Shown one piece after another: positions 9,423 to 32,434 of a stretch of 64,000 bases of DNA. Source of the DNA: an uncultured Candidatus Saccharibacteria bacterium. Its GTDB lineage: Bacteria; Patescibacteriota; Saccharimonadia; Saccharimonadales; CAZVRA01. Each line of letters begins with the position of its first letter. Within the stretch, counting starts at the first letter, position 1. The stretch spans positions 27,569 through 91,568 of the forward strand of contig CAZVRA010000001.1 in the NCBI GenBank assembly GCA_964630055.1. The letters are read 5' to 3'. The notes beneath the pieces were generated by a model. It was not told where the DNA came from and ran no database searches. It saw nothing but the letters and a program-made list of their open reading frames with translations. The position numbers were made by a program, and so were the translations under genes.

Positions 9423-9430
9423 AACGTTTG

Positions 9431-10246: not shown

Positions 10247-10248
10247 TT

Positions 10249-18627: not shown

Positions 18628-19575
18628 CTAAAAATGGTTTTTCTCGTTAAATAGAGACGATACAGAATTATTTAGGTTCATGGCTTTTATAGCGTCTGCT
18701 ACGATTTTACCAATCGGTACTATATCTAGCTTATCAATCAACCCTTTGGGGGCAGGCAAAGTATCGGTTACTATAACCTTGCTGATAGGCGATTTTTGAA
18801 TTCTATCCACGGCCGGCTCGGAAAAAAGTCCATGAGTCGTTACGACCCAGACGTCTCTGGCGCCATTTTTTATAAGCAGCTCTGCTGCTGCGCATATGGT
18901 GCCAGCCGTGTCTATCATGTCATCATTAATTAGACAGTGCTTGTCTCTAACTTCACCAATTAAATGTACCGCTTCTGCTTTATCTCCTATTTTCCTATTC
19001 TTATGAATTATTGCCATGTCCGACCCTAGCTGCTCACAATATCGTTCGGTGAGCTTCACTCTACCTGCATCTGGGGATACTATAACTAGGTCTTCCATTT
19101 CTTCTGAGATAAGCTTGCGTAAGCGCCTTATTAGTACGGGCATGGCTATAAGATGGTCGAATGGGCCATTAAAAAAACCTTGGGTTTGGCCAGAATGCAT
19201 GTCTATGCTTACAATTCTATCGGCTCCAGCAGCGGCCAGAATATCTGTCACAAGCCGTGCCGTTATTGGTTCACGATCTTTGCTTTTTCGATCTTGCCTG
19301 GAGTATCCAAGATACGGGCAGACCGCAGTTATGCTGCGAGCCGAAGCGCGTTTCGCTGCATCAATCAATATCGCCTGCTCCATAATCGCTCCATTAACAT
19401 CGCCAAAATGAGTTTGGAATACAAAAACATTGGATCCTCTTACGGAGCTACCTAGGCGGAATTTTACTTCACTGTTAGCAAATTTCTGAAAATTAGAGTC
19501 ACTGATCTGGACACCAAGATGGTTTGCAACAGTCTTAGTAAAATCTTGGTTGTGGCTTCCGCAAAGTATTATCAT
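18628..19575 (-). CDS. prs: Ribose-phosphate pyrophosphokinase (PRPP synthase)
   Basis: DMHSGQTQGFF and the PRPP-binding loop INDDMIDTAGT. Strong SD GGAGG upstream. Confidence 0.9.
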   Translation of the reverse strand: MIILCGSHNQDFTKTVANHLGVQISDSNFQKFANSEVKFRLGSSVRGSNVFVFQTHFGDVNGAIMEQAILIDAAKRASARSITAVCPYLGYSRQDRKSKDREPITARLVTDILAAAGADRIVSIDMHSGQTQGFFNGPFDHLIAMPVLIRRLRKLISEEMEDLVIVSPDAGRVKLTERYCEQLGSDMAIIHKNRKIGDKAEAVHLIGEVRDKHCLINDDMIDTAGTICAAAELLIKNGARDVWVVTTHGLFSEPAVDRIQKSPISKVIVTDTLPAPKGLIDKLDIVPIGKIVADAIKAMNLNNSVSSLFNEKNHF

Positions 19576-19584
19576 AAGTCCTCC

Positions 19585-19713
19585 TCACAATTTATTAATA
19601 TTTGTTAATTCTTTGTACATGTCTTTATACCAGTATCTTTTTTCTGCGGTTAGGTACTTTGCATAATAAAGATATGTAAATAAACATACTAGAACTAGAA
19701 AAACCATGCCCAT
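19585..19713 (-). CDS. Possible 42-aa single-TM peptide (not in ORF track)
   Basis: Translates to MGMVFLVLVCLFTYLYYAKYLTAEKRYWYKDMYKELTNINKL. It fills the gap between the GT-C gene and prs, and its stop abuts the prs SD. It has no SD of its own. Confidence 0.25.
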   Translation of the reverse strand: MGMVFLVLVCLFTYLYYAKYLTAEKRYWYKDMYKELTNINKL

Positions 19714-19723
19714 AGTTAATGTG

Positions 19724-21613
19724 TTATTTGATTTTATAGATTTCATAAGACTCATCTCTATATATTAAACGTAAACTGCTTTTTCGCGCCAGTTTATTTT
19801 CTGGACTATCTATAAAAGTGAAAACGTATTTTACATTCTGTTTTTCTAAGGACTCCATCCATCCTAACTCATTGTCGCCCACTGGAACATATACGACCTT
19901 ATTGCTGTAGTCTGGTTTCCAAAGAGGGTATATAAAATATGGCTTTGAATCGTAGGCAATAACATCGCCATTACTTGCTTCTTCTTGCATAAAAACAAAG
20001 GCTCTCCCAGGTATAGAATCGTAGATAGAGCCACGGGTCGATCCGTGCCTTAAGCTGTCTAACTGTGATCTAATCCGCTCTGTAGAGAAGTAGCACATGG
20101 TTAAGTTTGTGAGCATAACTAGCAGTATAAGGATTATTGATATGATCTTTACTATGTTCGCTATTATTGGCTTTATGTTATTAAGCACTAGCCCAAGACT
20201 AAGAATGCCTATTAGTGGCAAGAACAATACATAACGACTATAAAAATTAAATGGATAGGCTGCAAAAACTACTAAGCATGCCGCAGATATTGCTAAGAAT
20301 AGCCAGTTTTTTTGTTTTATGGCTATATAAATTGCCACAATAAATGCAGGGAGCATGGTTATAAACCAGATTGGCCCGAGGCCGGCGTAAGGGGAGTCGT
20401 ATATGTAAAGACATTTCGCCCAGTTTGTTTGCTCTGTCCAGCTAAACCATATCCTCTCTAAACATGTTTTAGGCATTTTTTCTAAACCATACATATAATT
20501 AGAAAGATATTCCTCGTATGTTTTTCCGGGAAATATAGGCTTACCTAGAGCTTTAAGCCCAAAAGGGTAAAAAGGACTTTTATATAAAATATAGTTTTTT
20601 GCATACCAATAAAGTCCAAATGGCATTGCAGCAGCTGCGATTAAGATAGGCCTTAGATATTTTCTAAAATTTAGCCGACTCTTCTTTGGCAGGTTGATAT
20701 AAATGTTCCAGATCAGGAACAGCAAGATTGCGACAATAAAGAGCGAACCGGTAGACTTTATAGATATCAATAATGAAAATATTATACCGATAACAAATAA
20801 ATCAAAATTCGCTAGCTTTTCTTTAACACTCAAATAGAGGGCGCCAAAAAATAAAGAGCAAAGCATTACATCAACATAGGTTGTCTTGAGTTGATTTATT
20901 AGTACGGGAGTGAATAAGAACATTAGGGATGTAAAGCGAGCATTTTTTTTGCTAACTCCAATAGAAAGAGATAAATTGTATAACGCAACTACTGCTAACA
21001 ATAGAAATGGAAGCTGTGTTAAGTCTACGAGAATATCATTTCTGATTCCTAGTACGCTCCACATCTGTATGAATTCACCACCTTTAGGGTAGCCAATCAA
21101 CCAGGGTATGCTACTAGGAGAATCAAATATATGCTTGTTCTGTATAGCGTTGCCAATATAGGTCATGTGATACGCGTTGCCATCCCAATCTACCACCGGA
21201 AATATAACTCCTAAAAATATTATCCAAGCCAACGTCACTATAGATAGGAATGCGACAATGGAGAATAATGGATCATTTTTGATAGCCATGACCCAGTTTT
21301 TTAGTCTAATGTGCTTCTTGTAATCTAATATATAGTTAATTATTATTTTTTTACCGTTGCGCCAAAAGGTATAACTCAGAAGTACAGAGCACAAAAGAAT
21401 GTTCATTATAAATAAGTTTTTACGAGTAAGATTTTTTGTTACTCCTAATAGAAACTCAGAACTAACGATTTGCGCCAAAAAGAGCACAAACGTAGATACA
21501 AATCTGCGTGATCCCTTGTACTTTTTTGAATAAACCAATAAATCTAGAGACACCAAAATGAGCATATTCAATAATACCCATAATAAAAGGGCCGACAGAT
21601 TTAGGTTATTCAT
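19724..21613 (-). CDS. Polytopic GT-C-like (ArnT/PMT/GT39-83-like) glycosyltransferase
   Basis: More than 12 TM helices with the large loops typical of lipid-phosphate-sugar-dependent GT-C enzymes. I chose the start at MNNLNLSALLL (21613). The track start at 21703 would overlap the divergent gene. Confidence 0.55.
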   Translation of the reverse strand: MNNLNLSALLLWVLLNMLILVSLDLLVYSKKYKGSRRFVSTFVLFLAQIVSSEFLLGVTKNLTRKNLFIMNILLCSVLLSYTFWRNGKKIIINYILDYKKHIRLKNWVMAIKNDPLFSIVAFLSIVTLAWIIFLGVIFPVVDWDGNAYHMTYIGNAIQNKHIFDSPSSIPWLIGYPKGGEFIQMWSVLGIRNDILVDLTQLPFLLLAVVALYNLSLSIGVSKKNARFTSLMFLFTPVLINQLKTTYVDVMLCSLFFGALYLSVKEKLANFDLFVIGIIFSLLISIKSTGSLFIVAILLFLIWNIYINLPKKSRLNFRKYLRPILIAAAAMPFGLYWYAKNYILYKSPFYPFGLKALGKPIFPGKTYEEYLSNYMYGLEKMPKTCLERIWFSWTEQTNWAKCLYIYDSPYAGLGPIWFITMLPAFIVAIYIAIKQKNWLFLAISAACLVVFAAYPFNFYSRYVLFLPLIGILSLGLVLNNIKPIIANIVKIISIILILLVMLTNLTMCYFSTERIRSQLDSLRHGSTRGSIYDSIPGRAFVFMQEEASNGDVIAYDSKPYFIYPLWKPDYSNKVVYVPVGDNELGWMESLEKQNVKYVFTFIDSPENKLARKSSLRLIYRDESYEIYKIK

Positions 21614-21620
21614 ACAATTG

Positions 21621-21629
21621 ATTGTAGCA
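21621..21629 (-). promoter_or_regulatory. Extended -10 box (TGcTACAAT), 7 nt upstream of ATG 21613; leaderless-type
   Basis: The minus strand reads cTGcTACAAT-caattgt-ATG. Confidence 0.45.
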
Positions 21630-21634
21630 GACAC

Positions 21635-21643
21635 TGTTATAAT
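21635..21643 (+). promoter_or_regulatory. Extended -10 box (TGtTATAAT), 9 nt upstream of ATG 21653; leaderless-type
   Basis: Reads cTGtTATAAT-aatgcgtaa-ATG. The whole divergent intergenic region is only 39 bp. Confidence 0.45.
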
Positions 21644-21652
21644 AATGCGTAA

Positions 21653-23260
21653 ATGAAACGAAGATTTGTTAATTTTCTTAAAAACACAGATTGCTCGGAG
21701 CAACAGTACCTAAAAAGAGCTTTGCTATTTAATTTTTTGATTATCCTATTTGTTGGAGCGCTCCTGGCTTGGGTTTACGCAGAGCAAATCAACCCCGACG
21801 GCATCGCTTATTTAAAAATTGCCAGCCGATATGCCAATTTAGATATCGCAAGAGCCATTAATGGTTATTGGTCGCCTTTATTATCGTTACTATTAGTGCC
21901 GTTCATTTGGGTTGGTATAGAGCCAATCCATGCTTATAGAATAATCGTTGTTATAGTTGTCCTGGTTATAACTTCAAACATGTTGCTAATGATAAACAAT
22001 AGAGTTGGTTTGAAGCAAAGCTTTTGGGCTAAATTAACTGTCAGCATCAGTATTGGGTTAATAATGCTGGTTTGGGGTGTACAGGTTATTACGCCAGATA
22101 TTTTGAGTGGAGCCATACTGCTATTTTCTATAGAAATGGCTCAGAAATTCTACAACAAACCAGATTTCAAGAACGGTCTACTTAGCGGTAGTCTCTTTGC
22201 TTTAGTTTATTTAAGTAAAGCAGCGGCCATATCGGTGGCTTTGGTTTGTTTGACGGTTGTCATAGTATTTTTATTACTCAGTAAGTATGCCCGAGACAAT
22301 AATCTAAAAAAATACGCAGCAATCTTACTGCTAGCTTTCACTAGTATTGTGCTATCATGGTCGGCTCTTATTTCTTATAAATACCACAAGGTAACAATAA
22401 GTACTGCGGGATCTTATAACTTGGCTTTAGCTGGCCCAGACAAACCTTCGCACCCTCATTCTAGGTACGACACTATTTTGCCATCTAAGTACAATGATGA
22501 TATCTGGGCCTGGGACGACCCGAGTGTTATGCCGCCCCTACCAACCTGGAGTATTATGCGCCATAAGGAATTCTACTTACGGCAGATTATCAATAACCTA
22601 AATACTGCTTTAATCGATTTTTCTACTTTATCCCCTCTTCTTATTGGTGCAGTGATTATTTTAATTTTAAAAAAACAACGTGCTTTAGCCGATAATATGA
22701 CACTCTTTGCCGCAATTGGCTGCATTTTAGCCTATTCACTTGTTTTTATAGAACCTAGATATTTATGGCTAGCAGCTTTACCCCTAATGTTTTATGGCTG
22801 GACCGCTTTATTTGATAAACAACATGGCCGCACAACAATTAATGTCATGGCCATCTTTGTGTCAGCGGTTTCTTTGCTCAATTTGTTTCCGATATACCAG
22901 GACGCTACAAAAATTAAATATGTTTTTTCTAGTAATTCAACGTTAGCTAGGTCAATGGCTGCTACTGTGCCGGCAGGATCAAGGGTTGCCGGTCCGCAAG
23001 AGCGTTTTGAATATTGTTACTTTGCAAAATGGAACTGCATTAGTCAATATGTTCTGGCTAATGATGAAAGAGTGCGTATTGAGCAGATAGACCACCTCAG
23101 AAGCTCTGGAATAAAATATTATTTCGAAGCCGAAGCGCCTAAAGAGTTAGGTTTAAAACTGATTAAGAACAGTGTAGCCGCTGATAAGAAATGTCACAAT
23201 TGGACCAATGATCTAGAAGAAAGTTGTCCGCTGCGGCAACTTTCGATGTACGAGCTTTAG
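21653..23260 (+). CDS. Polytopic GT-C-like glycosyltransferase
   Basis: About 11 TM helices plus a C-terminal soluble domain. Overall architecture resembles ArnT/PMT-type enzymes. It is divergent from a second GT-C-like gene. Confidence 0.55.
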   Translation: MKRRFVNFLKNTDCSEQQYLKRALLFNFLIILFVGALLAWVYAEQINPDGIAYLKIASRYANLDIARAINGYWSPLLSLLLVPFIWVGIEPIHAYRIIVVIVVLVITSNMLLMINNRVGLKQSFWAKLTVSISIGLIMLVWGVQVITPDILSGAILLFSIEMAQKFYNKPDFKNGLLSGSLFALVYLSKAAAISVALVCLTVVIVFLLLSKYARDNNLKKYAAILLLAFTSIVLSWSALISYKYHKVTISTAGSYNLALAGPDKPSHPHSRYDTILPSKYNDDIWAWDDPSVMPPLPTWSIMRHKEFYLRQIINNLNTALIDFSTLSPLLIGAVIILILKKQRALADNMTLFAAIGCILAYSLVFIEPRYLWLAALPLMFYGWTALFDKQHGRTTINVMAIFVSAVSLLNLFPIYQDATKIKYVFSSNSTLARSMAATVPAGSRVAGPQERFEYCYFAKWNCISQYVLANDERVRIEQIDHLRSSGIKYYFEAEAPKELGLKLIKNSVAADKKCHNWTNDLEESCPLRQLSMYEL

Positions 23261-23262
23261 CA

Positions 23263-24690
23263 CTATTTCTCCTGCAGACCGGTCTCTGTAATAATAGACG
23301 ATTCTTGGTACTCGTCATCGCTATTTATGTCCCATAAGTCGTGCTTAGCATTGTCGGCAATATTCTCTGCCGCAAGCATGCCCATCAGTATACTGTGGTC
23401 CTGGTTGTTGTATTTGAATGCGCCGTAGCGGCCGATGATTTCTAGTTTTTTGTAGTCACGTAAAAAATCTTCAACTAGCTTGAGCTGAGGTTTGTATCCT
23501 TGACCATATACAGGGTAACACTTGGGCACTCGAATGACTTTACCTTCCTGTATTTGCTCTGGCTTAACCAAGCCAGTCATGGCTAACTCTTTTTTTGCCA
23601 GCTCAATATGTTGGTCGTCTTTCCAGCTCCAAAAGTCGTCTTCATCAAAACTCCAATATTCCATGGCGATGATGGCTTCTTTTTGACCCCTGTTGATCGA
23701 TGGTACCCAGTTTTGGAAGTTAGTAATTCGACCAGTGCGCAGCTCAGTGCTATGCACATAAATCCAGTTGTCTGGGAAGATATTCTTGGCCCTGACCTTT
23801 AAGTAAACAATGAGTGTATTACGAAACTTTAATGATTGGTTGGCTTTTGCGACTTTTGCTGGCACGTTGCTAAGACGGCCAACCAGAACGGTTAATGGCA
23901 TGGATGACACCACATGATCATAATCTATCTTTTTGCCGCTTTCTAACTGCACGCCAGTAACTGCCTTGCCGCGAGTTATTAGTTGTTCTACGGGTGTCTT
24001 TAGGTAAACCTTGCCACCATTTTTAGCAATGTACTTCCTCATTCTCTCATAAACTTCACCGGTACCCTTGTTGGGATAGGCAAACTGATCGACTAGTGTT
24101 TTGTGCTTCTCGCCACCGCCACCAAAGATAGCGCTTTTTATAGCTTCCGATAGCGAAAGTTTCTTGATGCGTTGTGAGGCAAACTCTGAATCTAATTTAT
24201 TACCAGGTATACCCCACAGTTTTTCGGTATATGTTTTAAAAAAGTGCCCATATAAGCGCTTACCAAAACGAGCGGTTACCCATGACTCAAACGTATTTCC
24301 CAATTGCGTGCCACCGGGTTTTACACGCTGCCAGCCGTAGCTTGCGACACAACTAATAGCTTCAAAAATACCCAAGTTGCCAAGGGCATTGCCGGCCTTA
24401 ATTGGGTAGTAATAGAACTTATTTCGGAAAAAAATTCGGGTTAACCGGTCGACCATAGCATAGTCTTTACCGATAACTTCTAGCCAAAGCTTATTGACTC
24501 GCGTATCGTTGCTAAAAAACCGGTGCGGCCCAATATCTACTATTTGCCCCCATAGGTCAAAAGAGCGTGCCATACCACCAACATAAGGTGAGGCTTCATA
24601 CAGGTCTACACTTACACCCTTTTTAGTAAGCTCATAAGCAGCGGTAATTCCCGCCGGCCCAGCTCCAATAACGGCAACTTTTTTATTCAT
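23263..24690 (-). CDS. FAD-dependent, UDP-galactopyranose-mutase-like (Glf-related) flavoenzyme
   Basis: Rossmann motif KVAVIGAGPAGITAAYEL. YTEKLWG resembles the YTEKQWG of E. coli Glf as I remember it. C-terminal IGRYGAFKYNNQDHSI resembles Glf GRLAEYKYYDMHQVI. Start chosen at MNKKVAV (24690). Confidence 0.65.
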   Translation of the reverse strand: MNKKVAVIGAGPAGITAAYELTKKGVSVDLYEASPYVGGMARSFDLWGQIVDIGPHRFFSNDTRVNKLWLEVIGKDYAMVDRLTRIFFRNKFYYYPIKAGNALGNLGIFEAISCVASYGWQRVKPGGTQLGNTFESWVTARFGKRLYGHFFKTYTEKLWGIPGNKLDSEFASQRIKKLSLSEAIKSAIFGGGGEKHKTLVDQFAYPNKGTGEVYERMRKYIAKNGGKVYLKTPVEQLITRGKAVTGVQLESGKKIDYDHVVSSMPLTVLVGRLSNVPAKVAKANQSLKFRNTLIVYLKVRAKNIFPDNWIYVHSTELRTGRITNFQNWVPSINRGQKEAIIAMEYWSFDEDDFWSWKDDQHIELAKKELAMTGLVKPEQIQEGKVIRVPKCYPVYGQGYKPQLKLVEDFLRDYKKLEIIGRYGAFKYNNQDHSILMGMLAAENIADNAKHDLWDINSDDEYQESSIITETGLQEK

Positions 24691-24700
24691 CTTCAGCAGG

Positions 24701-24709
24701 ATTGTAGCA
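24701..24709 (-). promoter_or_regulatory. Extended -10 box (TGcTACAAT), 10 nt upstream of ATG 24690
   Basis: The minus strand reads gTGcTACAAT-cctgctgaag-ATG. Confidence 0.4.
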
Positions 24710-24771
24710 CAGTTTTTGTCACAACAACTAGTTTCGTTGTATAAAGGACGTAGTTTATAATATAGAAGGTA

Positions 24772-25638
24772 ATGATAAGTGAAAAAGTTATTTTGCTTGC
24801 AAAAGCAATGCGTCCCAAGCACTACCTTAAGAATGGTTTGATCTTTTTGCCTGCTGTTTTCGGAGGTAATTTATTACATATGGCAACGTTAAGAATTTTG
24901 CTATTTTCGTTCGTTGCTTTTTCACTCGCTGCCTCATCAATATATATTTTTAACGATCTTAATGACCGTCAACTTGATTCCAAGCATCCTAAGAAAAAAA
25001 TTAGACCCATTGCTTCTGGCGCCATTAGCATGTGGCAGTCTCGAGTGCTGATGATTTCTTTGCTCCTGGCTGCTATACTGTTACAAGCATGGTCTGGCTC
25101 AATAGTTCTTAGTATCTATCTATTGGTTGGCTATGTGTTAATTAACGCATGTTATAGTTTAGGACTAAAAAATATACCCATAATCGATGTAGCAATATTA
25201 TCGCTAGGTTTTGTTATAAGAGTTTATTTTGGTGCTGTCAGCGTAAATATTGGCGTATCCACCTGGCTTTATTTATCAATTTTAGCTTTCTCATTCTATT
25301 TAAGTTTAGGTAAGCGCCGAAATGAAATTGCGGCTGTTGGCTCAACCACTCGCAAAGTTAATAGCCACTATACACAAGATTTTCTGGATAAAAATATGTA
25401 CGTGTGTCTGGCCCTCACATTAGTATATTATTCTCTCTGGACTATAGATCCAGTTCAGAGCCACAAAAGTCTCAAGCTTACTGTGCCATTGGTTCTTTTG
25501 ATTACAATGACTTACAGCTTAACCATAGAAAAAAGTCGTGCCGATGGTGATCCGGTGGAGGTTTTAACCAATAACAAGCTGTTACTTAGCATGGTTGTAG
25601 TCTATGTAGCGATGGTTATAGGACTAATCTATTTTTAG
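24772..25638 (+). CDS. UbiA-superfamily polyprenyl-phosphate 5-phosphoribosyltransferase (Rv3806c/DPPR-synthase-like)
   Basis: Eight to nine TM helices. FNDLNDRQLDSKHPKKKIRPIASG matches the NDxxDxxxD...HPxK.RPiA.G signature I associate with decaprenyl-phosphate phosphoribosyltransferases rather than MenA/UbiA/CyoE. Confidence 0.7.
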   Translation: MISEKVILLAKAMRPKHYLKNGLIFLPAVFGGNLLHMATLRILLFSFVAFSLAASSIYIFNDLNDRQLDSKHPKKKIRPIASGAISMWQSRVLMISLLLAAILLQAWSGSIVLSIYLLVGYVLINACYSLGLKNIPIIDVAILSLGFVIRVYFGAVSVNIGVSTWLYLSILAFSFYLSLGKRRNEIAAVGSTTRKVNSHYTQDFLDKNMYVCLALTLVYYSLWTIDPVQSHKSLKLTVPLVLLITMTYSLTIEKSRADGDPVEVLTNNKLLLSMVVVYVAMVIGLIYF

Positions 25639-25648
25639 AGGCTGATTT

Positions 25649-26218
25649 ATGGCAAAACCCCTTAATATTTTTGACTTTGATCATACTATATATGACGGTG
25701 ATTGTACTCTAGACTTTTATTTTTTTTGTCTTATCCGACAACCTTCAATATTGAAGGTTTGGCCCAAGCAGTTTTGGGCAGCATTTTTATTTCTACTTGG
25801 TATAAAAACAAGAGACGAATTCAAAAGTACTTTTTTAATTTTTGTTTCAGTACTTAAAAATCCAATGTTGAGGGTGAAGCAATTTTGGCAACACAATAGT
25901 AGAAAAATCAAACCATGGTACAAAAAAGTTGCATCTTCCGAGGACGTCATTATATCTGCTTCTCCTAATTTGATACTGGAACCAATCGCCAAAGAGTTGG
26001 GGGTAAAGGCTTTGATCAGCACAAAAATTGACGAAAAGGGCAGAATAGTTGGTCATAACTGCCGTGGCCAAGAGAAAGTTACTCGTTTCTATCAAGTTTT
26101 TGGAAACCACGCAGTGGGTAGAGCCTACAGTGACAGTAAGTCGGACATGCCGATGCTAAATCTAGCAGACCATGCTTTTATTGTAAGGGGCAACACTACT
26201 ACGATGATAGAGCTATAA
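25649..26218 (+). CDS. HAD-superfamily (subfamily IB-like) phosphatase
   Basis: Motif I FDFDHTIYDG and motif IV YSDSKSDMPML. It lies 10 nt downstream of the UbiA-like gene. Confidence 0.7.
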   Translation: MAKPLNIFDFDHTIYDGDCTLDFYFFCLIRQPSILKVWPKQFWAAFLFLLGIKTRDEFKSTFLIFVSVLKNPMLRVKQFWQHNSRKIKPWYKKVASSEDVIISASPNLILEPIAKELGVKALISTKIDEKGRIVGHNCRGQEKVTRFYQVFGNHAVGRAYSDSKSDMPMLNLADHAFIVRGNTTTMIEL

Positions 26219-26298: not shown

Positions 26299-27312
26299 TT
26301 ATCCTTCATTAAGCGCTCTTTGCCAGCGCCAAGCGTCGGCTAGGGCGTCGGCTAGGCTTTTTCTGGCCTGCCAGCCAAGTGTCTTGGCGGCTTTGCTGGT
26401 GTCGGCGTAGGCGGTGGTGATGTCGCCGGAGCGCCTGGGGCCAATTGAGTATTTAACCTTTTCACCAGTGGCTTGCTCAAAAGTTTTGATTAGCTCCAAT
26501 ACGCTAGTGCCCTTGCCAGCGCCGATGTTAAAAACGTCACTAGTTCTGGCGGCCATTTTCGCGCAAAATTCTATGGCCGCTACGTGCGCCTTGGCGAGGT
26601 CCACGACATGAATGTAGTCGCGGATGCAGGTGCCGTCTGGCGTGGGGTAGTCGTCGCCAAAAACGGTTAGGGGTGGAATTAGCCCGGCCACGGATTGCGT
26701 CAAAAATGGCACCAAACAGTTAGGTCTGCCAAGTGGTAGTTCGCCCAAAAGCCCCGACGGATGGGCGCCAATTGGGTTAAAGTAGCGCAGCAGCACACTT
26801 TTAAAATCGGCAGCGGCGGTAAAATCGCGCAAGATTACCTCGTCCATTTGTTTGGTGGCACCGTACGGCGAAGCGGCTGGCTGCATGGGCGAGTTTTCGG
26901 TTAGCGGCTGCTGATCGGTGTCGCCATACACGGTGCAGGACGACGAAAATACAAAATTCTGGACTCCAAGGTCTTGGCAAGTTTGCAGCAGATCAATTAA
27001 ACCAGCAACATTATTTTGATAATATTTAAGCGGTTGCTCGACAGATTCGCCGACAGCCTTAAAAGCGGCAAAATGTATAATGCCATCAATCGATTCGTTT
27101 TTGATGACCTTTTTTAGCGCCTCGTTATCACGATAATCTTGCTGGTAAAAAGTTGGCTGCCGGCCGGTTATTTTTTCTATGCCGTCCAGGGACGACTGGC
27201 GGCTGTTGCTCAAATCGTCCAATATGACCGGGTTATAGCCGGCCGCAAGTAGTTCTACGGCGGTATGCGATCCGATGTAGCCGGCACCGCCGGTAACCAA
27301 AATGTTTTTCAT
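26299..27312 (-). CDS. galE: UDP-glucose 4-epimerase (extended SDR)
   Basis: ILVTGGAGYIGSH and the PYGATK catalytic YxxxK. The length and C-terminal region are typical of GalE. Confidence 0.85.
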   Translation of the reverse strand: MKNILVTGGAGYIGSHTAVELLAAGYNPVILDDLSNSRQSSLDGIEKITGRQPTFYQQDYRDNEALKKVIKNESIDGIIHFAAFKAVGESVEQPLKYYQNNVAGLIDLLQTCQDLGVQNFVFSSSCTVYGDTDQQPLTENSPMQPAASPYGATKQMDEVILRDFTAAADFKSVLLRYFNPIGAHPSGLLGELPLGRPNCLVPFLTQSVAGLIPPLTVFGDDYPTPDGTCIRDYIHVVDLAKAHVAAIEFCAKMAARTSDVFNIGAGKGTSVLELIKTFEQATGEKVKYSIGPRRSGDITTAYADTSKAAKTLGWQARKSLADALADAWRWQRALNEG

Positions 27313-28463
27313 GTTTTTGCCTCACTTTCTGATTTTGCGACTAACTTTATAAAGCTATTCCTAAAATTATCCGCCGAAAACGCGTTGGCGGCGGCCTGTA
27401 TAGATGCCTTGTTCCAACTCCCTTGATCAAATTGTTTCAACACATCGCATAGGGAATCGACTGTTTGCTGGTCAAAAAATAGGCCGGTCTGGTCGTCCAC
27501 AACATAGTCTAGTGCACCGCCACCGCGGTAAGCAATAACCGGCAGGCCGGCGGCCATAGCTTCGACCGGGGAAATGCCAAAATCTTCTTCGCCAGGAAAT
27601 ATAAAAGCTTTAGCCGAATAAGCTAGAGCAACAAGTTCGTCGTCCGAAGCTCGGCCAGCAAATTTTATAGTTGGACCGGCCAGTTTTTTGAGCCTAGGGG
27701 TATCTGGCCCGCTGCCGACAACTGTCAGGGGAAGTGCCAGGCGATTACACGCTTCTATGGCCAGGTCAAAACGTTTGTAGGGAACATGCCGTCCCCACAT
27801 TATAAAACCCCTATGGCTATCTTGACGTTGCTTAACATGTTTAGGATTGTGCGAAAACCTCGCAATATTTATTGGAGGGTGCAAAACCGTGCTGTCACAT
27901 CCGTAATATTTTTTTATTTGATTCTTAATATGTTTTGAATTGGCTATGAATAGATCAACTTTTTGGGCTGCTTTATGGTCGCTAAGACGTAGCGATCTTG
28001 CAAGAACATTTAGACCGATTCGCGCCAGCCAATGAGGACGAAAGCTTGGCTTATTGTGATATTCGTCGTACTTTTCCCACAAAAAATGCGGTGGCGAATG
28101 ACAGTACGAAATATGCTTAGCGAAGCAAGAGAACCTTTTGACATGCTTAGCTTCGCCATTGCCGGATGAGCTAATTATTAAGTCAAAAGCACGAAGATCC
28201 AGCCTGGCAAACCACCACTGCCGTAGTAGCGGCAAAAACTTTCGCAGACGTGCGAATGGCCACCATTGCAAGTAGCCGGTAACTACTTTGTCGCCGAGCC
28301 GCCACCGCCATTCTGCCGAACAATATGATGTATAAATGGGTGCATCTGGGTAAAGTTTGTGCAGTTGCTCGACAACCAGTTCTGCACCACCGCCATATAT
28401 CCAATCTGCGACTATGACAACTTTTTTGCTGTCATTATCTTGGCTCATTTTGTGGTGGCTCAT
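27309..28463 (-). CDS. GT4-family glycosyltransferase
   Basis: EEDFGISPVEAMAAGLPVIAYRGGGALDYV motif. It has 4-nt overlaps with both neighbours. Confidence 0.8.
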   Translation of the reverse strand: MSHHKMSQDNDSKKVVIVADWIYGGGAELVVEQLHKLYPDAPIYTSYCSAEWRWRLGDKVVTGYLQWWPFARLRKFLPLLRQWWFARLDLRAFDLIISSSGNGEAKHVKRFSCFAKHISYCHSPPHFLWEKYDEYHNKPSFRPHWLARIGLNVLARSLRLSDHKAAQKVDLFIANSKHIKNQIKKYYGCDSTVLHPPINIARFSHNPKHVKQRQDSHRGFIMWGRHVPYKRFDLAIEACNRLALPLTVVGSGPDTPRLKKLAGPTIKFAGRASDDELVALAYSAKAFIFPGEEDFGISPVEAMAAGLPVIAYRGGGALDYVVDDQTGLFFDQQTVDSLCDVLKQFDQGSWNKASIQAAANAFSADNFRNSFIKLVAKSESEAKT

Positions 28464-29881
28464 TTTGCGCCCAAGCCGGTCAAGACTACTCGCAAGGTTT
28501 TTATTAAAATCACAATATCACCCCAAAAACTCCAGTTTTGGACATAGTACATGTCTAGTTTGCGGCGCTCCTCAAAACTAATATCTTGGCGGCCAGATAC
28601 CTGTGCCAGCCCAGTTAAACCAGATTTAACGCTCAGTATGGTATGACGCTTTTCGTAAGTGCTCATTTCTTCCGGGATCAGGGCTCTTGGGCCCACTAAG
28701 CTGATGTCCCCTTTCAGGACATTAAAAAGCTGAGGTAATTCATCCAAAGAGCTGCGGCGTAAAAACCTGCCTAAAGCTGTGACTCGAGGGTCTTTTTCTA
28801 GGCTGTAGCCATTTTGCTTATACTTTTCGTATAATTGAGGTTTGCCGAGTTTTGCAAATGCCTCCTTGTCGGACAAGCCGCTTATGCTATTAAAGTGAGT
28901 CCGAAATTTGAACACCTTAAAGTGTTGATTGTAGCGAGTAATACGCTCCTGCCGGAAAAAAACCGGCAAACCGCCGCCGACAACAACTTCCAAAAAAGCA
29001 ATCAAGATCATGATTGGTAAAGAAATTATTATTAAAATAAAACTTACGAAAATGTCGAACAGGCGTTTGACAATTCTTCCCCAGCCAATTAAGGCAGTTT
29101 GATGAATAGCGATCATAGGTTGACCAGCAAATAGGTCGACATGAATTTTGCCAACAAACAAGTCGTTAGCAGTTGGCACAAAACGGTAACTAATGTGGTG
29201 TTTTTGGGCGAACTGAAGGATGTCGTTATTGCGTAATTGGTCGTTATAAAGTTTGGTTTGGATTATGCTGTGAATTGGTGCGGTTATTTTTTGTGTAGCT
29301 TCTTGCAAATTGCTGTAACATTTAAAAAAGTCGGAAGTTTTGGCTACTACGCCAACAATGCGTTGACCAGTGAAAGCAGTCTGATGCATAGCTATGCCAA
29401 TTTCATCTGTTAGCCTAGTATCGCCAATTAGCAGGACATTGCTGACTCCAATGCCAAAACTGTATAAAGCCCGGCGTAGCATTCGAGCAAAAATTCTAAA
29501 CAGCAATAAAAATCCAAAACCAAGCGCTAGACCATAGGCCGGCACCAACCTGGCGGGGAATATTTTGTCGTTAGAGACAAAGTCGTAGCCAATCATCACC
29601 AATATGCCCAGTGCAGAACCAAAGAATAGTCGGCCAAATTCTGTAAAGCGCCTTTCGTAAATATTTGCCGAGTACAGGCCAATCAGGGCATGGACACCAA
29701 TCCACAGCGGGAGCGTGCTAGCTAATATGCCAAAAAAGGTTCGGGCTGGAACAAATTGCAGCAAAGGCCGAGCATCTAGCTTGACGCGCAGTATATAGGC
29801 CACTGTAAAAGCTGCAAGCAGAGCCAAAAAATCCCCGATTATTAGCATGATGGCATAGAATACGGAGGCGTTGTTTTTCAT
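28460..29881 (-). CDS. Polyprenyl-phosphate sugar-phosphate transferase (WbaP/bacterial sugar transferase family; initiating PGT)
   Basis: N-terminal TM helices, then C-terminal RRSSLDELPQLFNVLKGDISLVGPRA and LTGLAQV motifs. Confidence 0.85.
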   Translation of the reverse strand: MKNNASVFYAIMLIIGDFLALLAAFTVAYILRVKLDARPLLQFVPARTFFGILASTLPLWIGVHALIGLYSANIYERRFTEFGRLFFGSALGILVMIGYDFVSNDKIFPARLVPAYGLALGFGFLLLFRIFARMLRRALYSFGIGVSNVLLIGDTRLTDEIGIAMHQTAFTGQRIVGVVAKTSDFFKCYSNLQEATQKITAPIHSIIQTKLYNDQLRNNDILQFAQKHHISYRFVPTANDLFVGKIHVDLFAGQPMIAIHQTALIGWGRIVKRLFDIFVSFILIIISLPIMILIAFLEVVVGGGLPVFFRQERITRYNQHFKVFKFRTHFNSISGLSDKEAFAKLGKPQLYEKYKQNGYSLEKDPRVTALGRFLRRSSLDELPQLFNVLKGDISLVGPRALIPEEMSTYEKRHTILSVKSGLTGLAQVSGRQDISFEERRKLDMYYVQNWSFWGDIVILIKTLRVVLTGLGAK

Positions 29882-30422: not shown

Positions 30423-30447
30423 GTGTTGCCATTTACTACCATATTTA

Positions 30448-32313: not shown

Positions 32314-32322
32314 ATGCGGGCA

Positions 32323-32331
32323 ATTATAGCA
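32323..32331 (-). promoter_or_regulatory. Extended -10 box (TGcTATAAT), 9 nt upstream of ATG 32313; leaderless-type
   Basis: The minus strand reads taTGcTATAAT-tgcccgcat-ATG. Confidence 0.45.
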
Positions 32332-32434
32332 TAAGCCAGTCTTCAAAATCATTTTTCTTAAATTCTAAATGCTAAGAATCTTTTGAGCTATACTAGAAGC
32401 AATACCATTTTAATACCAGGACCTTTTAGACCTT

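What the first reader, a model, noticed from the sequence alone, without database searches (positions are those of the whole stretch)
18628..26218. Arabinogalactan-style lipid-linked pentofuranose pathway (prs, two GT-C enzymes, Glf-like flavoenzyme, DPPR-synthase-like UbiA, HAD phosphatase)
**Seen in sequence**
- A UbiA-superfamily protein (24772-25638) carries FNDLNDRQLDSKHPKKKIRPIASG. I associate this signature with decaprenyl-phosphate 5-phosphoribosyltransferase (M. tuberculosis Rv3806c), not with quinone or heme prenyltransferases.
- A HAD phosphatase follows it 10 nt downstream. This is a candidate for the 5'-dephosphorylation step, which in mycobacteria is done by the PAP2 protein Rv3807c.
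- It is divergent from a Glf-like flavoenzyme (YTEKLWG and GRYGAFKYNN motifs).
- Next come two divergent GT-C-like polytopic enzymes and prs, the PRPP supplier.

**Context in the flanking cluster**
- Every other module of the mycobacterial arabinogalactan logic is present: galE, an initiating phosphoglycosyl transferase, GT2/GT4 enzymes, a Wzm/Wzt exporter, two GtrA proteins (compare Rv3789) and an LCP ligase (compare Lcp1).

**Inference**
- This organism may build a wall-linked glycan that is decorated outside the membrane with furanose residues from a polyprenyl-phospho-pentose donor.
- I saw no DprE1-type (VAO-fold FAD) or DprE2-type (short SDR) epimerase in the window. The donor may therefore stay as polyprenyl-P-ribofuranose, or the 2'-epimerisation may be done by non-orthologous enzymes.
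- Such a pathway outside the Corynebacteriales, in a CPR-like reduced genome, would be unusual. It could also be relevant to interaction with actinobacterial hosts.
Basis: partly seen in the sequence, partly recalled or inferred. Interest (0 to 1): 0.72.

Follow-up and report, generated by a model that had tools for sequence, protein, structure and literature searches.

The report
Lipid-linked ribofuranose wall-decoration gene cluster
This stretch of a probable Saccharibacteria genome encodes a recently described kind of pathway that loads ribose from PRPP onto a membrane lipid and adds it to a wall sugar polymer outside the cell; it is a new example of a known, widespread system, not a mycobacterial speciality.

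Summary
The UbiA-family protein (24772-25638) is a homologue of polyprenyl-phosphate 5-phosphoribosyltransferase. Its only solved relative is M. tuberculosis Rv3806c (E 3e-31), and 9 of the 11 PRPP-contacting residues mapped are identical. The HAD-IB phosphatase 10 nt downstream has intact catalytic motifs and is a conserved or fused partner in many phyla. Both polytopic proteins model with high confidence as GT-C glycosyltransferases. The flavoenzyme is a true UDP-galactopyranose-mutase-type enzyme.

Together with GtrA flippases, this matches the "three-component" extracytoplasmic pentofuranosylation system of Kelly et al. (PNAS 2024). No DprE1/DprE2-type epimerase was found in the window, so the most likely donor is polyprenyl-P-ribofuranose.

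The claim of rarity fails. More than 588 species-level genomes across many phyla carry close homologues. Among them is a Lactococcus plasmid with the same GT-C/UbiA/HAD/GtrA module.

The mutase belongs to a separate branch. None of its 80 closest relatives lies near UbiA or HAD; instead they sit beside GalE, GtrA and GT-C-like genes. That hints at an undescribed lipid-linked galactofuranose route.

Verdict: observation confirmed, interpretation partly supported, a new member of a known kind.

The parts
24772..25638 (+). Polyprenyl-phosphate 5-phosphoribosyltransferase (PPPRS), UbiA fold, a homologue of Rv3806c and of the C. youngae ORF15 C-terminal domain
   Evidence: - NCBIfam: the best matches are decaprenyl-P phosphoribosyltransferase models at 172 and 169 bits, and the HAD-UbiA fusion family NF006088 at 154 bits. 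Quinone and heme models score 43 bits or less.
- The only PDB hits are Rv3806c 8j8j/8j8k, E 3e-31.
- Rv3806c PRPP and Mg contacts map as R22/K28/Y70/N73/D77/K87/R90/Y138/K143 -> R14/K20/Y58/N61/D65/K75/R78/Y128/K133, all identical. Q135 -> N125 and Y157 -> F147 are the two changes.
25649..26218 (+). HAD-IB phosphatase, the candidate polyprenyl-P-5-phosphoribose 5'-phosphatase
   Evidence: - PF12710 at 73 bits and TIGR01490 at 88 bits.
- Catalytic motifs D9-x-D11-x-T13, S103-A-S105, K143 and D162-x3-D166 are invariant in an alignment of 10 UbiA-linked HADs.
- A homologue lies within 4.2 kb of UbiA in 47 of 85 loci, and directly downstream in 32.
- Fusions exist: UbiA::HAD (P0068) and HAD::GtrA (L004).
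- Biochemical precedent: the ORF15 PRP domain.
19724..21613 (-). GT-C glycosyltransferase "A" (629 aa), the best candidate for the extracytoplasmic pentofuranosyltransferase
   Evidence: - AF2 model pLDDT 90.5.
- The top 27 Foldseek PDB hits are all GT-C-fold membrane proteins, nearly all glycosyltransferases: ArnT at 8e-7, then AglB, DPY19, Pmt4, ALG9, AftA, PimE, Emb and AftD.
- D144, Y148 and H149 are invariant in the loop after the core's first TM helix.
- 22 close homologues lie on contigs of the same length as contigs that carry UbiA homologues.
- A homologue sits about 1.4-2.5 kb from UbiA in L001, L003, L005, L006 and L007.
19585..19755 (-). 56-aa single-pass membrane protein, overlapping the end of GT-C A
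   Evidence: ORF. It is 34% identical (E 1e-9) to the 59-aa gene that follows the GT-C A homologue in L005. The function is unknown; it may be a GT-C partner.
21653..23260 (+). GT-C glycosyltransferase "B" (535 aa), a distant paralogue of A; donor uncertain (second pentofuranose or galactofuranose)
   Evidence: - AF2 model pLDDT 91.1.
- Foldseek top hits are ALG12, ArnT, OST/AglB, AftA, PglB and AftB.
- D49 after TM1 is invariant.
- hhalign A against B gives probability 97.4%, E 1e-11.
- Homologues sit next to UbiA-HAD (L088), in a GtrA-flavoenzyme-GT-C operon (L086), or next to a flavoprotein, a GT2 and GtrA (L087).
23263..24690 (-). UDP-galactopyranose-mutase-type flavoenzyme (eukaryote-type UGM homologue, NCBIfam PRK07208.1-4)
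   Evidence: - NF005548 at 555 bits, above its cut-off of 389.
- Full-length PDB matches to T. cruzi and A. fumigatus UGM, E 1e-19.
- The equivalents of AfUGM H63, Y104, F158, W167, R182, Y317, R327, Y419, R447, Y453, N457 and S461 are conserved in the window protein and in at least 81 of 82 family members.
18628..19575 (-). Ribose-phosphate diphosphokinase (Prs), the PRPP supplier
   Evidence: TIGR01251 at 339 bits, NF002320 at 350 bits. It lies within 3.5-7 kb of UbiA-HAD in L001, L003, L005, L006 and L007; outside Saccharimonadia only one partial match (L055, ~9 kb away) was seen.
26299..27312 (-). UDP-glucose 4-epimerase GalE, the probable UDP-Gal supplier for the mutase
   Evidence: TIGR01179 at 422 bits, above its cut-off of 262. 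GalE-like genes are the commonest neighbours of the flavoenzyme family (16 of 247 neighbouring ORFs; 9 loci with one directly adjacent). A galE and a PGT homologue lie in the same relative arrangement in L090, which has no UbiA or HAD.
29940..30482 (-). GtrA-family protein 1, a candidate flippase for a polyprenyl-P-sugar
   Evidence: PF04138 at 61 bits, with four predicted TM segments. Its assignment to the ribose or hexose branch is unresolved.
32435..32956 (+). GtrA-family protein 2, syntenic in Saccharimonadia relatives
   Evidence: PF04138 at 68 bits. It is 44-49% identical to the GtrA next to PGT and LexA in L002 and L005.
3656..4585 (-). GtrB-like GT2 with two C-terminal TM helices (a polyprenyl-phosphate hexose synthase type), a second lipid-sugar donor synthase
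   Evidence: PF00535 at 124 bits. TM segments at 231-249 and 268-286. Homologues at 29-49% identity lie within about 10 kb of the flavoenzyme in 9 of 80 loci.
27309..29881 (-). GT4 plus the initiating phosphoglycosyl transferase, which start the glycan backbone
   Evidence: PF00534 and PF02397; TIGR03025 at 331 bits.
30448..32352 (-). LCP ligase, which attaches the polymer to peptidoglycan
   Evidence: PF03816 at 125 bits plus LytR_C.
9428..11439 (+). Wzm/Wzt-type ABC exporter for the polymer
   Evidence: PF01061 and PF00005.

Best explanation
The segment encodes a three-component extracytoplasmic pentofuranosylation system of the kind defined in Citrobacter youngae. It is embedded in a wall-polysaccharide gene cluster of a probable Saccharimonadia (CPR) bacterium.

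Proposed steps of the ribose branch:
1. Prs makes PRPP (function shown by homology).
2. [quoted passage not shown]
3. The adjacent HAD-IB phosphatase removes the 5'-phosphate, giving polyprenyl-P-ribofuranose (inferred from linkage, fusions and the ORF15 precedent).
4. A GtrA-type protein flips the donor across the membrane (inferred; which of the two GtrA proteins does this is unknown).
5. GT-C "A" transfers the furanose to a polymer outside the membrane (inferred from co-occurrence). That polymer is started by the phosphoglycosyl transferase and GT4, extended by GT2/GT4 enzymes, exported by Wzm/Wzt, and finally attached to peptidoglycan by the LCP enzyme.

No DprE1/DprE2-type or ORF13-type auxiliary epimerase was detected next to the module, so the sugar most likely stays ribofuranose.

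The UGM-type flavoenzyme is a separate branch. With GalE it makes UDP-galactofuranose. Its use here is unproven: either a cytoplasmic GT, or, through the GtrB-like GT2 and a GtrA, GT-C "B".
For: **UbiA homologue.** Profile scores favour DPPR-synthase models and the ORF15-type fusion family by more than 100 bits over any prenyltransferase model. The only solved relative is Rv3806c. Of the 11 PRPP/Mg-contact residues mapped, 9 are identical and 2 are conservative changes. The paper states that the phosphoribose contacts are not shared with true UbiA enzymes. The ORF15 catalytic residues N247/D248/D251/D255 and R366/E369 correspond to N61/D62/D65/D69 and R182/E185, by register inferred from the NF006088 profile coordinates. 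All of these are invariant in the family alignment.

**HAD.** Its catalytic motifs are intact. A homologue lies directly downstream of UbiA in 32 of 85 loci from many phyla and within 4.2 kb in 47. UbiA::HAD and HAD::GtrA fusions exist. The ORF15 PRP domain is biochemically proven.

**GT-C fold.**

**GT-C A linkage to UbiA in Saccharimonadia.**

**Same module elsewhere.** Lactococcus plasmid pF27D carries hypothetical-462aa/DPPRS/HAD-IB/GtrA, with an LCP gene about 1 kb further on. A human-gut fragment deposited as phage (unverified) carries UbiA/HAD/small membrane protein/SDR-like protein/polytopic 565-aa protein; those last three roles were read from the ORF translations and not scanned.

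**No epimerase.** No DprE1/DprE2-type protein in the window.

**UGM assignment and independence from the UbiA module.**
Against: - Nothing here is biochemical. Neither the lipid acceptor nor the sugar finally transferred has been observed.
- The UbiA homologue falls below NCBIfam's equivalog cut-offs (172 against 207 bits). It is therefore a relative of the actinobacterial enzyme, not an orthologue.
- The HAD did not match the N-terminal half of the NF006088 fusion model at E <= 0.01. Orthology with the ORF15 PRP domain is therefore unproven.
- Neither GtrA gene is adjacent to the module, and neither could be assigned to it. The ArnE/EamA-like small membrane gene that follows GT-C A in relatives is missing from the window.
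- An epimerase could be encoded elsewhere in the genome. Only 64 kb of a contig of at least 292 kb was seen.
- GT-C B also occurs beside UbiA-HAD in one relative (L088), so which GT-C uses the ribose donor is not settled.
- One Bacilli operon (L031) includes a UGM-type gene within a UbiA/HAD/GtrA/GT-C operon. A link between the two branches therefore cannot be fully excluded.
Confidence: 0.72

Rival explanations
1. A mycobacterial-type arabinofuranose pathway. Polyprenyl-P-ribose is epimerised to polyprenyl-P-arabinofuranose (or to xylofuranose) by non-orthologous or distantly encoded enzymes, and the GT-Cs act as arabinosyl or xylosyl transferases.
For: - Other members of this system class add an epimerase to diversify the pentose: ORF13 gives Xylf and DprE1/E2 give Araf.
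- A Sinorhizobium nod plasmid shows UbiA-GtrA-FAD oxidoreductase-SDR.
- Relative L004 has an unannotated 521-aa protein (no Pfam match) next to an SDR about 6-8 kb downstream of its UbiA module.
- Only 64 kb of the genome was examined.
- GalE-like SDRs can be pentose epimerases in this context.
Against: - No FAD_binding_4 oxidase or short SDR occurs in the window.
- The only SDR near the module passes the GalE equivalog cut-off by a wide margin (422 against 262 bits). A galE and PGT homologue keep the same arrangement in a relative that has no UbiA or HAD within 10 kb (L090).
- The flavoenzyme has the UGM fold and all UDP-binding residues, not the VAO fold of DprE1.
Confidence: 0.13
2. The UGM-type flavoenzyme is an integral part of the pentose pathway. 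It would act on the lipid-linked pentose as a ring mutase or redox-neutral epimerase, rather than on UDP-galactose.
For: - It is transcribed divergently from the UbiA gene across an 81-bp gap.
- In the Bacilli locus L031, a 32%-identical copy is the last gene of an operon reading HAD::polytopic, UbiA, GtrA, GT-C::GtrA, flavoenzyme. That operon is flanked by hsp and glmS genes and contains no Gal genes.
- The family is often adjacent to GtrA and GT-C-like genes.
Against: - None of the 80 closest relatives (54-81% identity) has UbiA or HAD within 10 kb.
- GalE is the commonest neighbour.
- The uracil-stacking residues (Y104, F158, W167) and the diphosphate-binding residues of UGM are invariant or nearly so, including in the L031 and L086 copies. 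This points to a UDP-sugar substrate.
Confidence: 0.07
3. The UbiA homologue is an ordinary prenyltransferase (quinone, heme O, or archaeal-type lipid), and its position beside glycan genes is coincidental.
For: It belongs to Pfam UbiA (72 bits). It has weak matches to UbiA, heme O synthase and DGGGP synthase models (43 bits or less).
Against: - All those matches are far below their cut-offs.
- No prenyltransferase structure is hit at E < 0.01, whereas Rv3806c is hit at 3e-31.
- The phosphoribose and K/R-cluster residues specific to Rv3806c are conserved.
- The conserved partners are HAD, GtrA and GT-C genes.
Confidence: 0.02

Closest known systems
Citrobacter youngae O1/O2 three-component pentofuranose side-chain system (ORF15 PPPRS with its PRP domain, ORF14 flippase, ORF12 GT-C = GT136, optional ORF13 epimerase); Kelly et al., PNAS 2024 (PMC11127046)
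   Same: - A PRPP-dependent UbiA-fold polyprenyl-P phosphoribosyltransferase with the same catalytic residues.
- A HAD-superfamily 5'-phosphatase.
- A small-membrane-protein flippase candidate.
- A GT-C enzyme that would add the furanose outside the membrane to a finished polymer.
- Ribofuranose as the default sugar when no epimerase is present.
   Different: - HAD is a separate gene downstream, not an N-terminal domain, and did not match the fusion model's HAD half.
- The flippase candidates are GtrA-type rather than ArnE/F-like, and they are 3.7-6.8 kb away.
- The GT-Cs have no detectable sequence match to any Pfam GT family, and membership of GT136 was not testable.
- The host is a monoderm-type CPR bacterium with an LCP ligase, so the target is a wall polymer rather than an LPS O antigen.
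Mycobacterial decaprenyl-P-arabinose pathway (Rv3806c, Rv3807c, DprE1/DprE2, Rv3789, Emb/Aft GT-Cs) with Glf/GlfT and Lcp1
   Same: - The first committed enzyme is homologous, with conserved PRPP contacts.
- There is a GtrA-family flippase candidate, like Rv3789.
- GT-C transferases are used.
- An LCP ligase is present.
- A Galf-forming mutase is present.
   Different: - The phosphatase is HAD rather than PAP2.
- There is no DprE1/DprE2 in the window.
- The GT-Cs resemble ArnT, ALG and OST at least as closely as Aft or Emb.
- The mutase is the eukaryote-type UGM family rather than bacterial Glf (TIGR00031 31 bits against a cut-off of 304).
- The UbiA homologue is below the DPPRS equivalog cut-offs.
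GtrA/GtrB/GT-C (CsbB-GtcA-YfhO type) three-component glycosylation of Gram-positive wall polymers and O antigens
   Same: A lipid-phosphate monosaccharide donor, a GtrA flippase and an extracytoplasmic GT-C. The window also holds a GtrB-like GT2 (3656-4585) and two GtrA genes.
   Different: The donor synthase of the module in question is a PRPP-using UbiA-fold enzyme plus a phosphatase, not a GT2 that uses a UDP-sugar.
Rhizobial Nod-factor arabinosylation (as I recall it, Azorhizobium noeC/H/O/P) and Pseudomonas aeruginosa pilin D-Araf clusters
   Same: A UbiA-type PPPRS with GtrA and a polytopic transferase, outside the Actinobacteria. Example seen here: a Sinorhizobium plasmid locus, L171.
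   Different: Those clusters include DprE1-like FAD oxidase and DprE2-like SDR genes and lack a HAD partner.

Membership tests
Three-component extracytoplasmic pentofuranosylation system (Kelly et al. 2024) | A UbiA-fold polyprenyl-phosphate 5-phosphoribosyltransferase with DPPRS/ORF15 catalytic and PRPP-binding residues | tested here: met
   The N61/D62/D65/D69 and R182/E185 motifs are present, and 9 of the 11 Rv3806c PRPP contacts mapped are identical.
Three-component extracytoplasmic pentofuranosylation system (Kelly et al. 2024) | A phosphatase that removes the 5'-phosphate (a HAD-family PRP domain in the prototype) | tested here: inconclusive
   A HAD-IB gene lies 10 nt downstream with intact DxDxT, SAS, K and DxxxD motifs. 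Its linkage and fusions are conserved. However, it did not match the HAD half of NF006088, and its activity is untested.
Three-component extracytoplasmic pentofuranosylation system (Kelly et al. 2024) | A small membrane flippase encoded with the system | tested here: inconclusive
   Two GtrA genes lie in the same cluster, but neither is adjacent and neither could be assigned. GtrA is adjacent or fused in L004, L031 and L169.
Three-component extracytoplasmic pentofuranosylation system (Kelly et al. 2024) | A GT-C-fold glycosyltransferase encoded with the synthase | tested here: met
   AF2 models with pLDDT 90-91 and Foldseek hits made up almost entirely of GT-C enzymes. There is an invariant Asp in the first extracytoplasmic loop.
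CAZy GT136 (C. youngae ORF12) | Sequence similarity to ORF12 and its D31/E34/H106/R349 active-site set | not testable with these tools
   No ORF12 sequence was available. hhalign against the GT-C of an ORF12-like system (L170) gave no match, but that protein's family is itself unverified.
Mycobacterial DPA / arabinogalactan pathway | An orthologous DPPR synthase (NCBIfam equivalog) | tested here: not met
   172, 169 and 132 bits against cut-offs of 207, 234 and 474. It is a homologue, not an equivalog.
Mycobacterial DPA / arabinogalactan pathway | The DprE1 (VAO-fold FAD) and DprE2 (SDR) 2'-epimerase pair | tested here: not met
   None was found among the window ORFs scanned. The rest of the genome was not available.
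Mycobacterial DPA / arabinogalactan pathway | A PAP2 phosphatase (Rv3807c type) | tested here: not met
   No PAP2 protein was found in the window. A HAD-IB protein stands in its place.
UDP-galactopyranose mutase (functional class) | FAD Rossmann fold, a flavin-loop His, and the Arg/Tyr set that binds the UDP diphosphate and uracil | tested here: met
   Full-length alignment to TcUGM and AfUGM. The H63, Y104, F158, W167, R182, Y317, R327, Y419, R447, Y453, N457 and S461 equivalents are present and are conserved in at least 81 of 82 relatives.
Bacterial Glf (TIGR00031 / PF03275) | A score above the family cut-off | tested here: not met
   TIGR00031 scored 31 bits against a cut-off of 304, and there was no PF03275 hit. 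The protein belongs to NCBIfam PRK07208.1-4, which carries no assigned function.
UbiA-type aromatic, heme or lipid prenyltransferases | A score above the family cut-offs for UbiA, MenA, CyoE or DGGGPS models | tested here: not met
   All scored 43 bits or less against cut-offs of 180-375. No prenyltransferase structure was hit.

The most novel reading that the evidence does not exclude
The UGM-type flavoenzyme may define a second, undescribed extracytoplasmic furanosylation route. The partners would be GalE, the GtrB-like GT2, a GtrA and a GT-C (here GT-C B). In this route UDP-Galf is loaded onto polyprenyl phosphate, flipped, and transferred by a GT-C outside the membrane. The Saccharibacterial wall glycan would then be decorated externally with two different furanoses, Ribf from PRPP and Galf from a lipid-linked donor.

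The supporting pattern is that this mutase family keeps all its UDP-binding residues yet repeatedly sits next to GtrA and GT-C-like genes. Literature searches found no description of a polyprenyl-P-galactofuranose donor.
Probability: 0.22. Interest if true: 0.65.

Novelty: new member of a known kind. Interest (0 to 1): 0.36.

Why it matters
Almost nothing is known about the wall glycopolymers of Saccharibacteria, which live attached to actinobacterial hosts. This cluster predicts a specific and testable surface chemistry: a peptidoglycan-linked polysaccharide carrying ribofuranose side chains added outside the membrane. It also names the genes to knock out in the few tractable strains.

It extends the 2024 three-component pentofuranose system to the candidate phyla radiation, and shows a common split UbiA/HAD/GtrA form in Gram-positive lineages and on a dairy Lactococcus plasmid. 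It identifies a lineage-specific GT-C family as the likely transferase.

The side observation, a UDP-Galp-mutase family linked to GtrA and GT-C genes, could point to a new lipid-linked galactofuranose donor.

Tried and rejected
- **Sequence searches for the two polytopic proteins.** Pfam, NCBIfam and PDB gave nothing. Only structure prediction resolved them.
- **Context link between the flavoenzyme and UbiA.** This failed for all 80 closest relatives. Only a 32%-identical copy in L031 is linked. I therefore dropped the idea that the flavoenzyme is a core pathway enzyme or a DprE1 substitute. Its invariant uracil- and diphosphate-binding residues point the same way.
- **GalE as an ORF13-like lipid-pentose epimerase.** I judged this unlikely, because GalE passes the equivalog cut-off and a galE/PGT pair is found in a relative without UbiA or HAD. 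It is not excluded.
- **Assigning GtrA1 or GtrA2 to a branch.** Similarity to UbiA-linked or UGM-linked GtrAs was inconclusive.
- **hhalign of GT-C A and B against the GT-C of an ORF12-like system (L170).** No match.
- **HMMs of A and B against polytopic neighbours of the flavoenzyme.** These hit only 3 proteins, so those neighbours belong to other families.
- **Recovering the source contig by exact protein look-up.** The taxonomy therefore rests on the nearest homologues being Saccharimonadales MAGs and on shared synteny.
- **Literature searches.** Searches for PRK07208, for Saccharibacteria plus decaprenyl, and for a lipid-linked Galf donor found nothing relevant.
- **Quinone or heme prenyltransferase reading.** Rejected.

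Full report
**1. What is in the sequence**

- prs, 18628-19575 (-).
- Two divergently oriented polytopic ORFs, 19724-21703 (-) and 21653-23260 (+).
- A flavoenzyme ORF, 23263-24822 (-).
- A UbiA-family ORF, 24772-25638 (+), carrying FNDLNDRQLDSKHPKKKIRPIASG.
- A HAD ORF, 25649-26218 (+), 10 nt downstream of the UbiA ORF.

The apparent 5' overlaps of the divergent pairs disappear if the first polytopic gene starts at M31 (21613, 629 aa) and the flavoenzyme starts at M45 (24690, 475 aa). These are also the lengths of the NCBI-sourced proteins in the protein collection.

Pfam and NCBIfam confirm the following:
- prs: TIGR01251, 339 bits.
- galE: TIGR01179, 422 bits.
- A GT4.
- A WbaP-type phosphoglycosyl transferase: TIGR03025, 331 bits.
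- Two GtrA proteins.
- An LCP ligase.
- A Wzm/Wzt pair.
- A Wzy_C protein.
- Several GT2/GT4 enzymes.
- BacA.

No FAD_binding_4 (DprE1-type) or short SDR (DprE2-type) protein appeared among the ~62 non-nested window ORFs of at least 110 aa that were scanned.

**2. The UbiA homologue**

Its best NCBIfam matches are three decaprenyl-phosphate phosphoribosyltransferase models (172, 169 and 132 bits) and NF006088 (154 bits). NF006088 is a 482-position model, and the window protein aligns to its C-terminal half, positions 194-476. Models for UbiA, MenA-type enzymes, heme O synthase, chlorophyll synthase and DGGGP synthase score 43 bits or less. The only solved structures matched at E < 0.01 are the two Rv3806c entries (3e-31).

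I compared that alignment with the residues listed in the Rv3806c structure paper. The contacts map as follows:

| Rv3806c residue | Role | Window residue |
|---|---|---|
| N73, D77 | Mg / ribose | N61, D65 |
| K28, Y70 | 5'-phosphate | K20, Y58 |
| R22, K87, R90, K143, Y138 | pyrophosphate K/R cluster | R14, K75, R78, K133, Y128 |
| Q135 | ribose O3 | N125 |
| Y157 | 5'-phosphate (Phe in some mycobacteria) | F147 |

The paper states that the phosphoribose-binding residues are not shared with true UbiA prenyltransferases. This is therefore a discriminating test, and the protein passes it.

The NF006088 coordinates put the window's N61/D62/D65/D69 and R182/E185 in register with ORF15 N247/D248/D251/D255 and R366/E369. 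Those are the residues mutated in C. youngae. All of them are invariant in the family alignment.

The scores are below NCBIfam's equivalog cut-offs. I therefore call the protein a polyprenyl-phosphate phosphoribosyltransferase homologue, not an orthologue of the actinobacterial enzyme.

**3. The HAD protein**

It is a HAD-IB member (PF12710, 73 bits; TIGR01490, 88 bits). The nucleophile motif D9-x-D11-x-T13, the S103-A-S105 motif, K143 and D162-x3-D166 are all invariant in an alignment of ten UbiA-linked HADs from different lineages.

In 85 loci carrying a UbiA homologue, a HAD homologue lies within 4.2 kb in 47. In 32 of them it lies directly downstream on the same strand. Three kinds of fusion exist:
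- UbiA::HAD (P0068, 483 aa, 60% identical in the UbiA part).
- HAD::GtrA (L004).
- HAD fused to a large polytopic domain (L031).

In C. youngae ORF15 the fused HAD ("PRP") domain removes the ribose 5-phosphate, and this was shown by mass spectrometry of a D18A mutant. The inference that the window HAD does the same is strong, but it is still an inference. The HAD did not match the HAD half of NF006088 at E <= 0.01.

**4. The two polytopic proteins**

Neither has a Pfam, NCBIfam or PDB sequence match. Some homologues do carry weak PMT or PMT_2 hits.

AlphaFold2 models built on homologue alignments are confident: pLDDT 90.5 and 91.1, pTM 0.92 and 0.91.

Foldseek against the PDB returns almost only GT-C glycosyltransferases.
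- For A: ArnT (8e-7), AglB, DPY19, Pmt4, ALG9, AftA, PimE, Emb and AftD.
- For B: ALG12, ArnT, OST/STT3, AglB, AftA, PglB and AftB.

Each has an invariant Asp in the loop after the first core helix: D144 in VDWDGNAYH for A, and D49 in NPDGIAY for B.

Profile comparison shows that A and B are distant paralogues (97.4% probability, E 1e-11). A carries about four extra N-terminal helices.

A 56-aa single-pass protein (19585-19755) overlaps the end of A. It is conserved in that position in relatives.

**5. Which parts travel together**

In Saccharimonadia relatives (UbiA 52-64% identical), one arrangement recurs in L001, L003, L005, L006 and L007:
- GT-C A, a ~60-aa protein and an EamA/ArnE-like ~124-aa protein;
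- then a GT4;
- then UbiA and HAD;
- then a large ~720-750-aa protein with no Pfam match and a ~180-aa protein;
- then prs.

In addition, 22 close GT-C A homologues lie on contigs whose lengths equal those of contigs that carry UbiA homologues.

The window lacks the EamA-like gene and has an extra GtrA instead.

GT-C B is rarer (26 homologues, the next best at 33% identity). It appears in three settings:
- beside UbiA-HAD (L088);
- in a GtrA-flavoenzyme-GT-C operon (L086);
- with a flavoprotein, a GT2 and GtrA (L087).

The prs linkage is seen mainly within Saccharimonadia; outside it only one partial match about 9 kb away (L055) was found.

**6. The flavoenzyme**

It passes the NCBIfam PRK07208.1-4 cut-off (555 against 389 bits). 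That family has no assigned function. It aligns over its full length with T. cruzi and A. fumigatus UDP-galactopyranose mutases (about 1e-19).

I compared it with the published ligand-contact table for AfUGM. The following equivalents are present:
- The flavin-loop His (H63).
- The diphosphate binders R182, Y317, R327, Y419 and Y453.
- The uracil-pocket residues Y104, F158 and W167.
- R447, N457, Q458 and S461.

All of these are conserved in at least 80 of 82 family members. N163 is replaced by T or S, and N207 is uncertain. This is a genuine UDP-sugar pyranose/furanose mutase of the eukaryote-type lineage. It is not bacterial Glf (TIGR00031, 31 bits against a cut-off of 304), and it is not an amine oxidase or a phytoene desaturase in the functional sense.

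Its 80 closest metagenomic relatives (54-81% identical) never have UbiA or HAD within 10 kb. Their recurrent neighbours are:
- GalE-like genes: the largest neighbour cluster, and directly adjacent in 9 loci.
- GtrA: 11 loci, including four of the six closest relatives.
- Polytopic proteins with at least 8 predicted TM segments: 38 of 80 loci within 3 kb, 25 directly adjacent.

Of the 32 closest polytopic neighbours (within ~250 nt), about 13 hits were to recognisable GT-C families or to DUF6020, which co-occurs with PMT_2 in L031: PMT_2, GT87, PMT, ALG3, PIG-M and DUF6020. Four are FtsW/RodA, one is Wzy_C, and most of the rest have no Pfam match.

The mutase is therefore best read as a separate galactofuranose branch working with GalE. 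The window juxtaposes it with the ribose module.

The one counter-example is the Bacilli operon L031. It reads HAD::polytopic, UbiA, GtrA, GT-C::GtrA, then a UGM-type gene, and is flanked by hsp and glmS genes. This keeps a small probability for a functional link.

**7. Comparison with what is known**

Kelly et al. (PNAS 2024) showed biochemically that C. youngae adds alpha-Ribf or Xylf side chains through four parts: a PPPRS with a fused HAD phosphatase, a small flippase, a GT-C enzyme (GT136) and an optional epimerase. [quoted passage not shown] The window's module fits this definition.

The family is not rare.
- A scan of one genome per species found at least 588 relatives.
- The best 80 (40-60% identity) come from these groups:
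  - Saccharimonadales;
  - Bacilli, Erysipelotrichaceae and many Clostridia;
  - Planctomycetaceae;
  - Spirochaetia and Treponema;
  - Alphaproteobacteria;
  - Muribaculaceae and Prevotella;
  - Coriobacteriia;
  - Selenomonadaceae;
  - Limosilactobacillus.
- A mobilisable Lactococcus cremoris plasmid carries hypothetical-462aa / "decaprenyl-phosphate phosphoribosyltransferase" / HAD-IB phosphatase / GtrA, with an LCP gene about 1 kb beyond GtrA. These are the annotations as deposited.
- A human-gut fragment deposited as phage (unverified) carries UbiA, HAD, a 118-aa small membrane protein, a 321-aa SDR-like protein and a 565-aa polytopic protein. I assigned these last three roles from the ORF translations; they were not scanned against Pfam.
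- A Sinorhizobium nod plasmid shows the arabinose version: UbiA, GtrA, an FAD oxidoreductase and an SDR.

Compared with mycobacteria, the window shares only the first enzyme, a GtrA-like flippase candidate, the use of GT-Cs and an LCP ligase. It lacks the PAP2 phosphatase and DprE1/E2, and its mutase belongs to a different lineage.

The backbone, ABC-exporter and LCP arrangement is the general plan of Gram-positive wall glycopolymers.

**8. Mechanism proposed**

Ribose branch:
1. PRPP is made by Prs.
2. It is converted to polyprenyl-P-5-phosphoribose by the UbiA-fold PPPRS.
3. That is converted to polyprenyl-P-Ribf by HAD.
4. The donor is flipped, by a GtrA; which one is unknown.
5. The sugar is transferred to the exported polymer by GT-C A, possibly together with the 56-aa protein.
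6. The polymer is ligated to peptidoglycan by LCP.

Steps 2-5 are inferred from homology, conserved residues, gene linkage and the biochemical precedent.

Galactofuranose branch:
1. UDP-Glc is converted to UDP-Galp by GalE.
2. UDP-Galp is converted to UDP-Galf by the UGM-type enzyme.
3. What happens next is open. Either a cytoplasmic GT uses UDP-Galf, or Galf is loaded onto polyprenyl phosphate by the GtrB-like GT2 (3656-4585, with two C-terminal TM helices) and transferred by GT-C B.

**9. Verdict**

This is a new member, in a CPR lineage, of a known and widespread kind of system.

Searches of the paper library found nothing on this pathway in Saccharibacteria. The most novel reading still open is a lipid-linked galactofuranose route built around the UGM-GtrA-GT-C association. 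I found no description of such a route.

The organism was not identified directly. Saccharimonadia is inferred from the nearest homologues and from shared synteny.

Noticed in passing
window 23263-24690; loci L086, L090-L092, L131, L166 and others among L089-L168: The UGM-type flavoenzyme family keeps every UDP-binding residue, yet it repeatedly lies beside GtrA and polytopic GT-C-like genes and GalE. GtrA-UGM-GT-C operons occur, for example, in L086 and L090. This suggests a lipid-linked galactofuranose donor route that the literature searches did not find.
   Followed up: partly
L002 383-1834; L004 10830-11816; L031 7732-9993 and 11331-13271: Gene fusions tie the pathway parts together: UbiA::HAD (483 aa), HAD::GtrA (328 aa), HAD fused to a polytopic domain of about 570 aa (753 aa in total), and GT-C::GtrA (646 aa).
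   Followed up: partly
window 997-4585 (-): A GtrB-like GT2 (309 aa, two C-terminal TM helices) is followed by a 913-aa protein with at least 9 TM segments and a C-terminal PIG-L/LmbE-type deacetylase domain. This may be a third lipid-sugar plus polytopic-transferase pair, perhaps adding an N-acetyl-hexosamine that is then deacetylated.
   Followed up: no
window ~6000-26000: G+C is 36-41% across the glycan gene block and 44-53% in most of the rest of the window. This is consistent with a variable or horizontally exchanged surface-glycan island.
   Followed up: no
window 14693-17868 (-): An 887-aa protein with an N-terminal hydrophobic (signal-like) segment and visibly repetitive C-terminal sequence, with no Pfam match, is followed by a 171-aa membrane-anchored protein. 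Weakly similar proteins (21-35% identity) sit between HAD and prs in relatives L001 and L003-L007, so they may belong functionally to the same surface system.
   Followed up: partly
window 54820-54895, 55468-55542, 57866-57942: There are three tRNA-Met (CAT) genes within 3.1 kb, presumably an initiator, an elongator and a tRNA-Ile2-type (lysidine) copy. A PP-loop ATPase (ATP_bind_3 family, to which TilS belongs as I recall) lies at 61698-62657.
   Followed up: no
window 32953-34353: A LexA-like DNA-binding protein lies between GtrA2 and BacA. The order PGT, GtrA, LexA-like, BacA is conserved in relatives L002 and L005. This hints at a regulator tied to the lipid-carrier and glycan genes.
   Followed up: no
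L004 16811-20526: In one Saccharimonadia relative, the region about 6-10 kb downstream of the UbiA/HAD::GtrA module holds an unannotated 521-aa protein (no Pfam match), a 294-aa SDR, a small GT2 and another GtrA. The first two could be an oxidase and reductase pair that epimerises the lipid-linked pentose; that reading is my own and is unsupported by any domain match.
   Followed up: no
L169 (Lactococcus cremoris plasmid pF27D, NZ_CP068515.2 ~23.2-26.4 kb): A mobilisable dairy Lactococcus plasmid carries the same module (hypothetical 462 aa, DPPRS, HAD-IB, GtrA) beside Wzx/Wzy-type polysaccharide genes and an LCP gene. Ribofuranose-type decoration may therefore be a plasmid-borne, phage-relevant trait in lactococci.
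   Followed up: no
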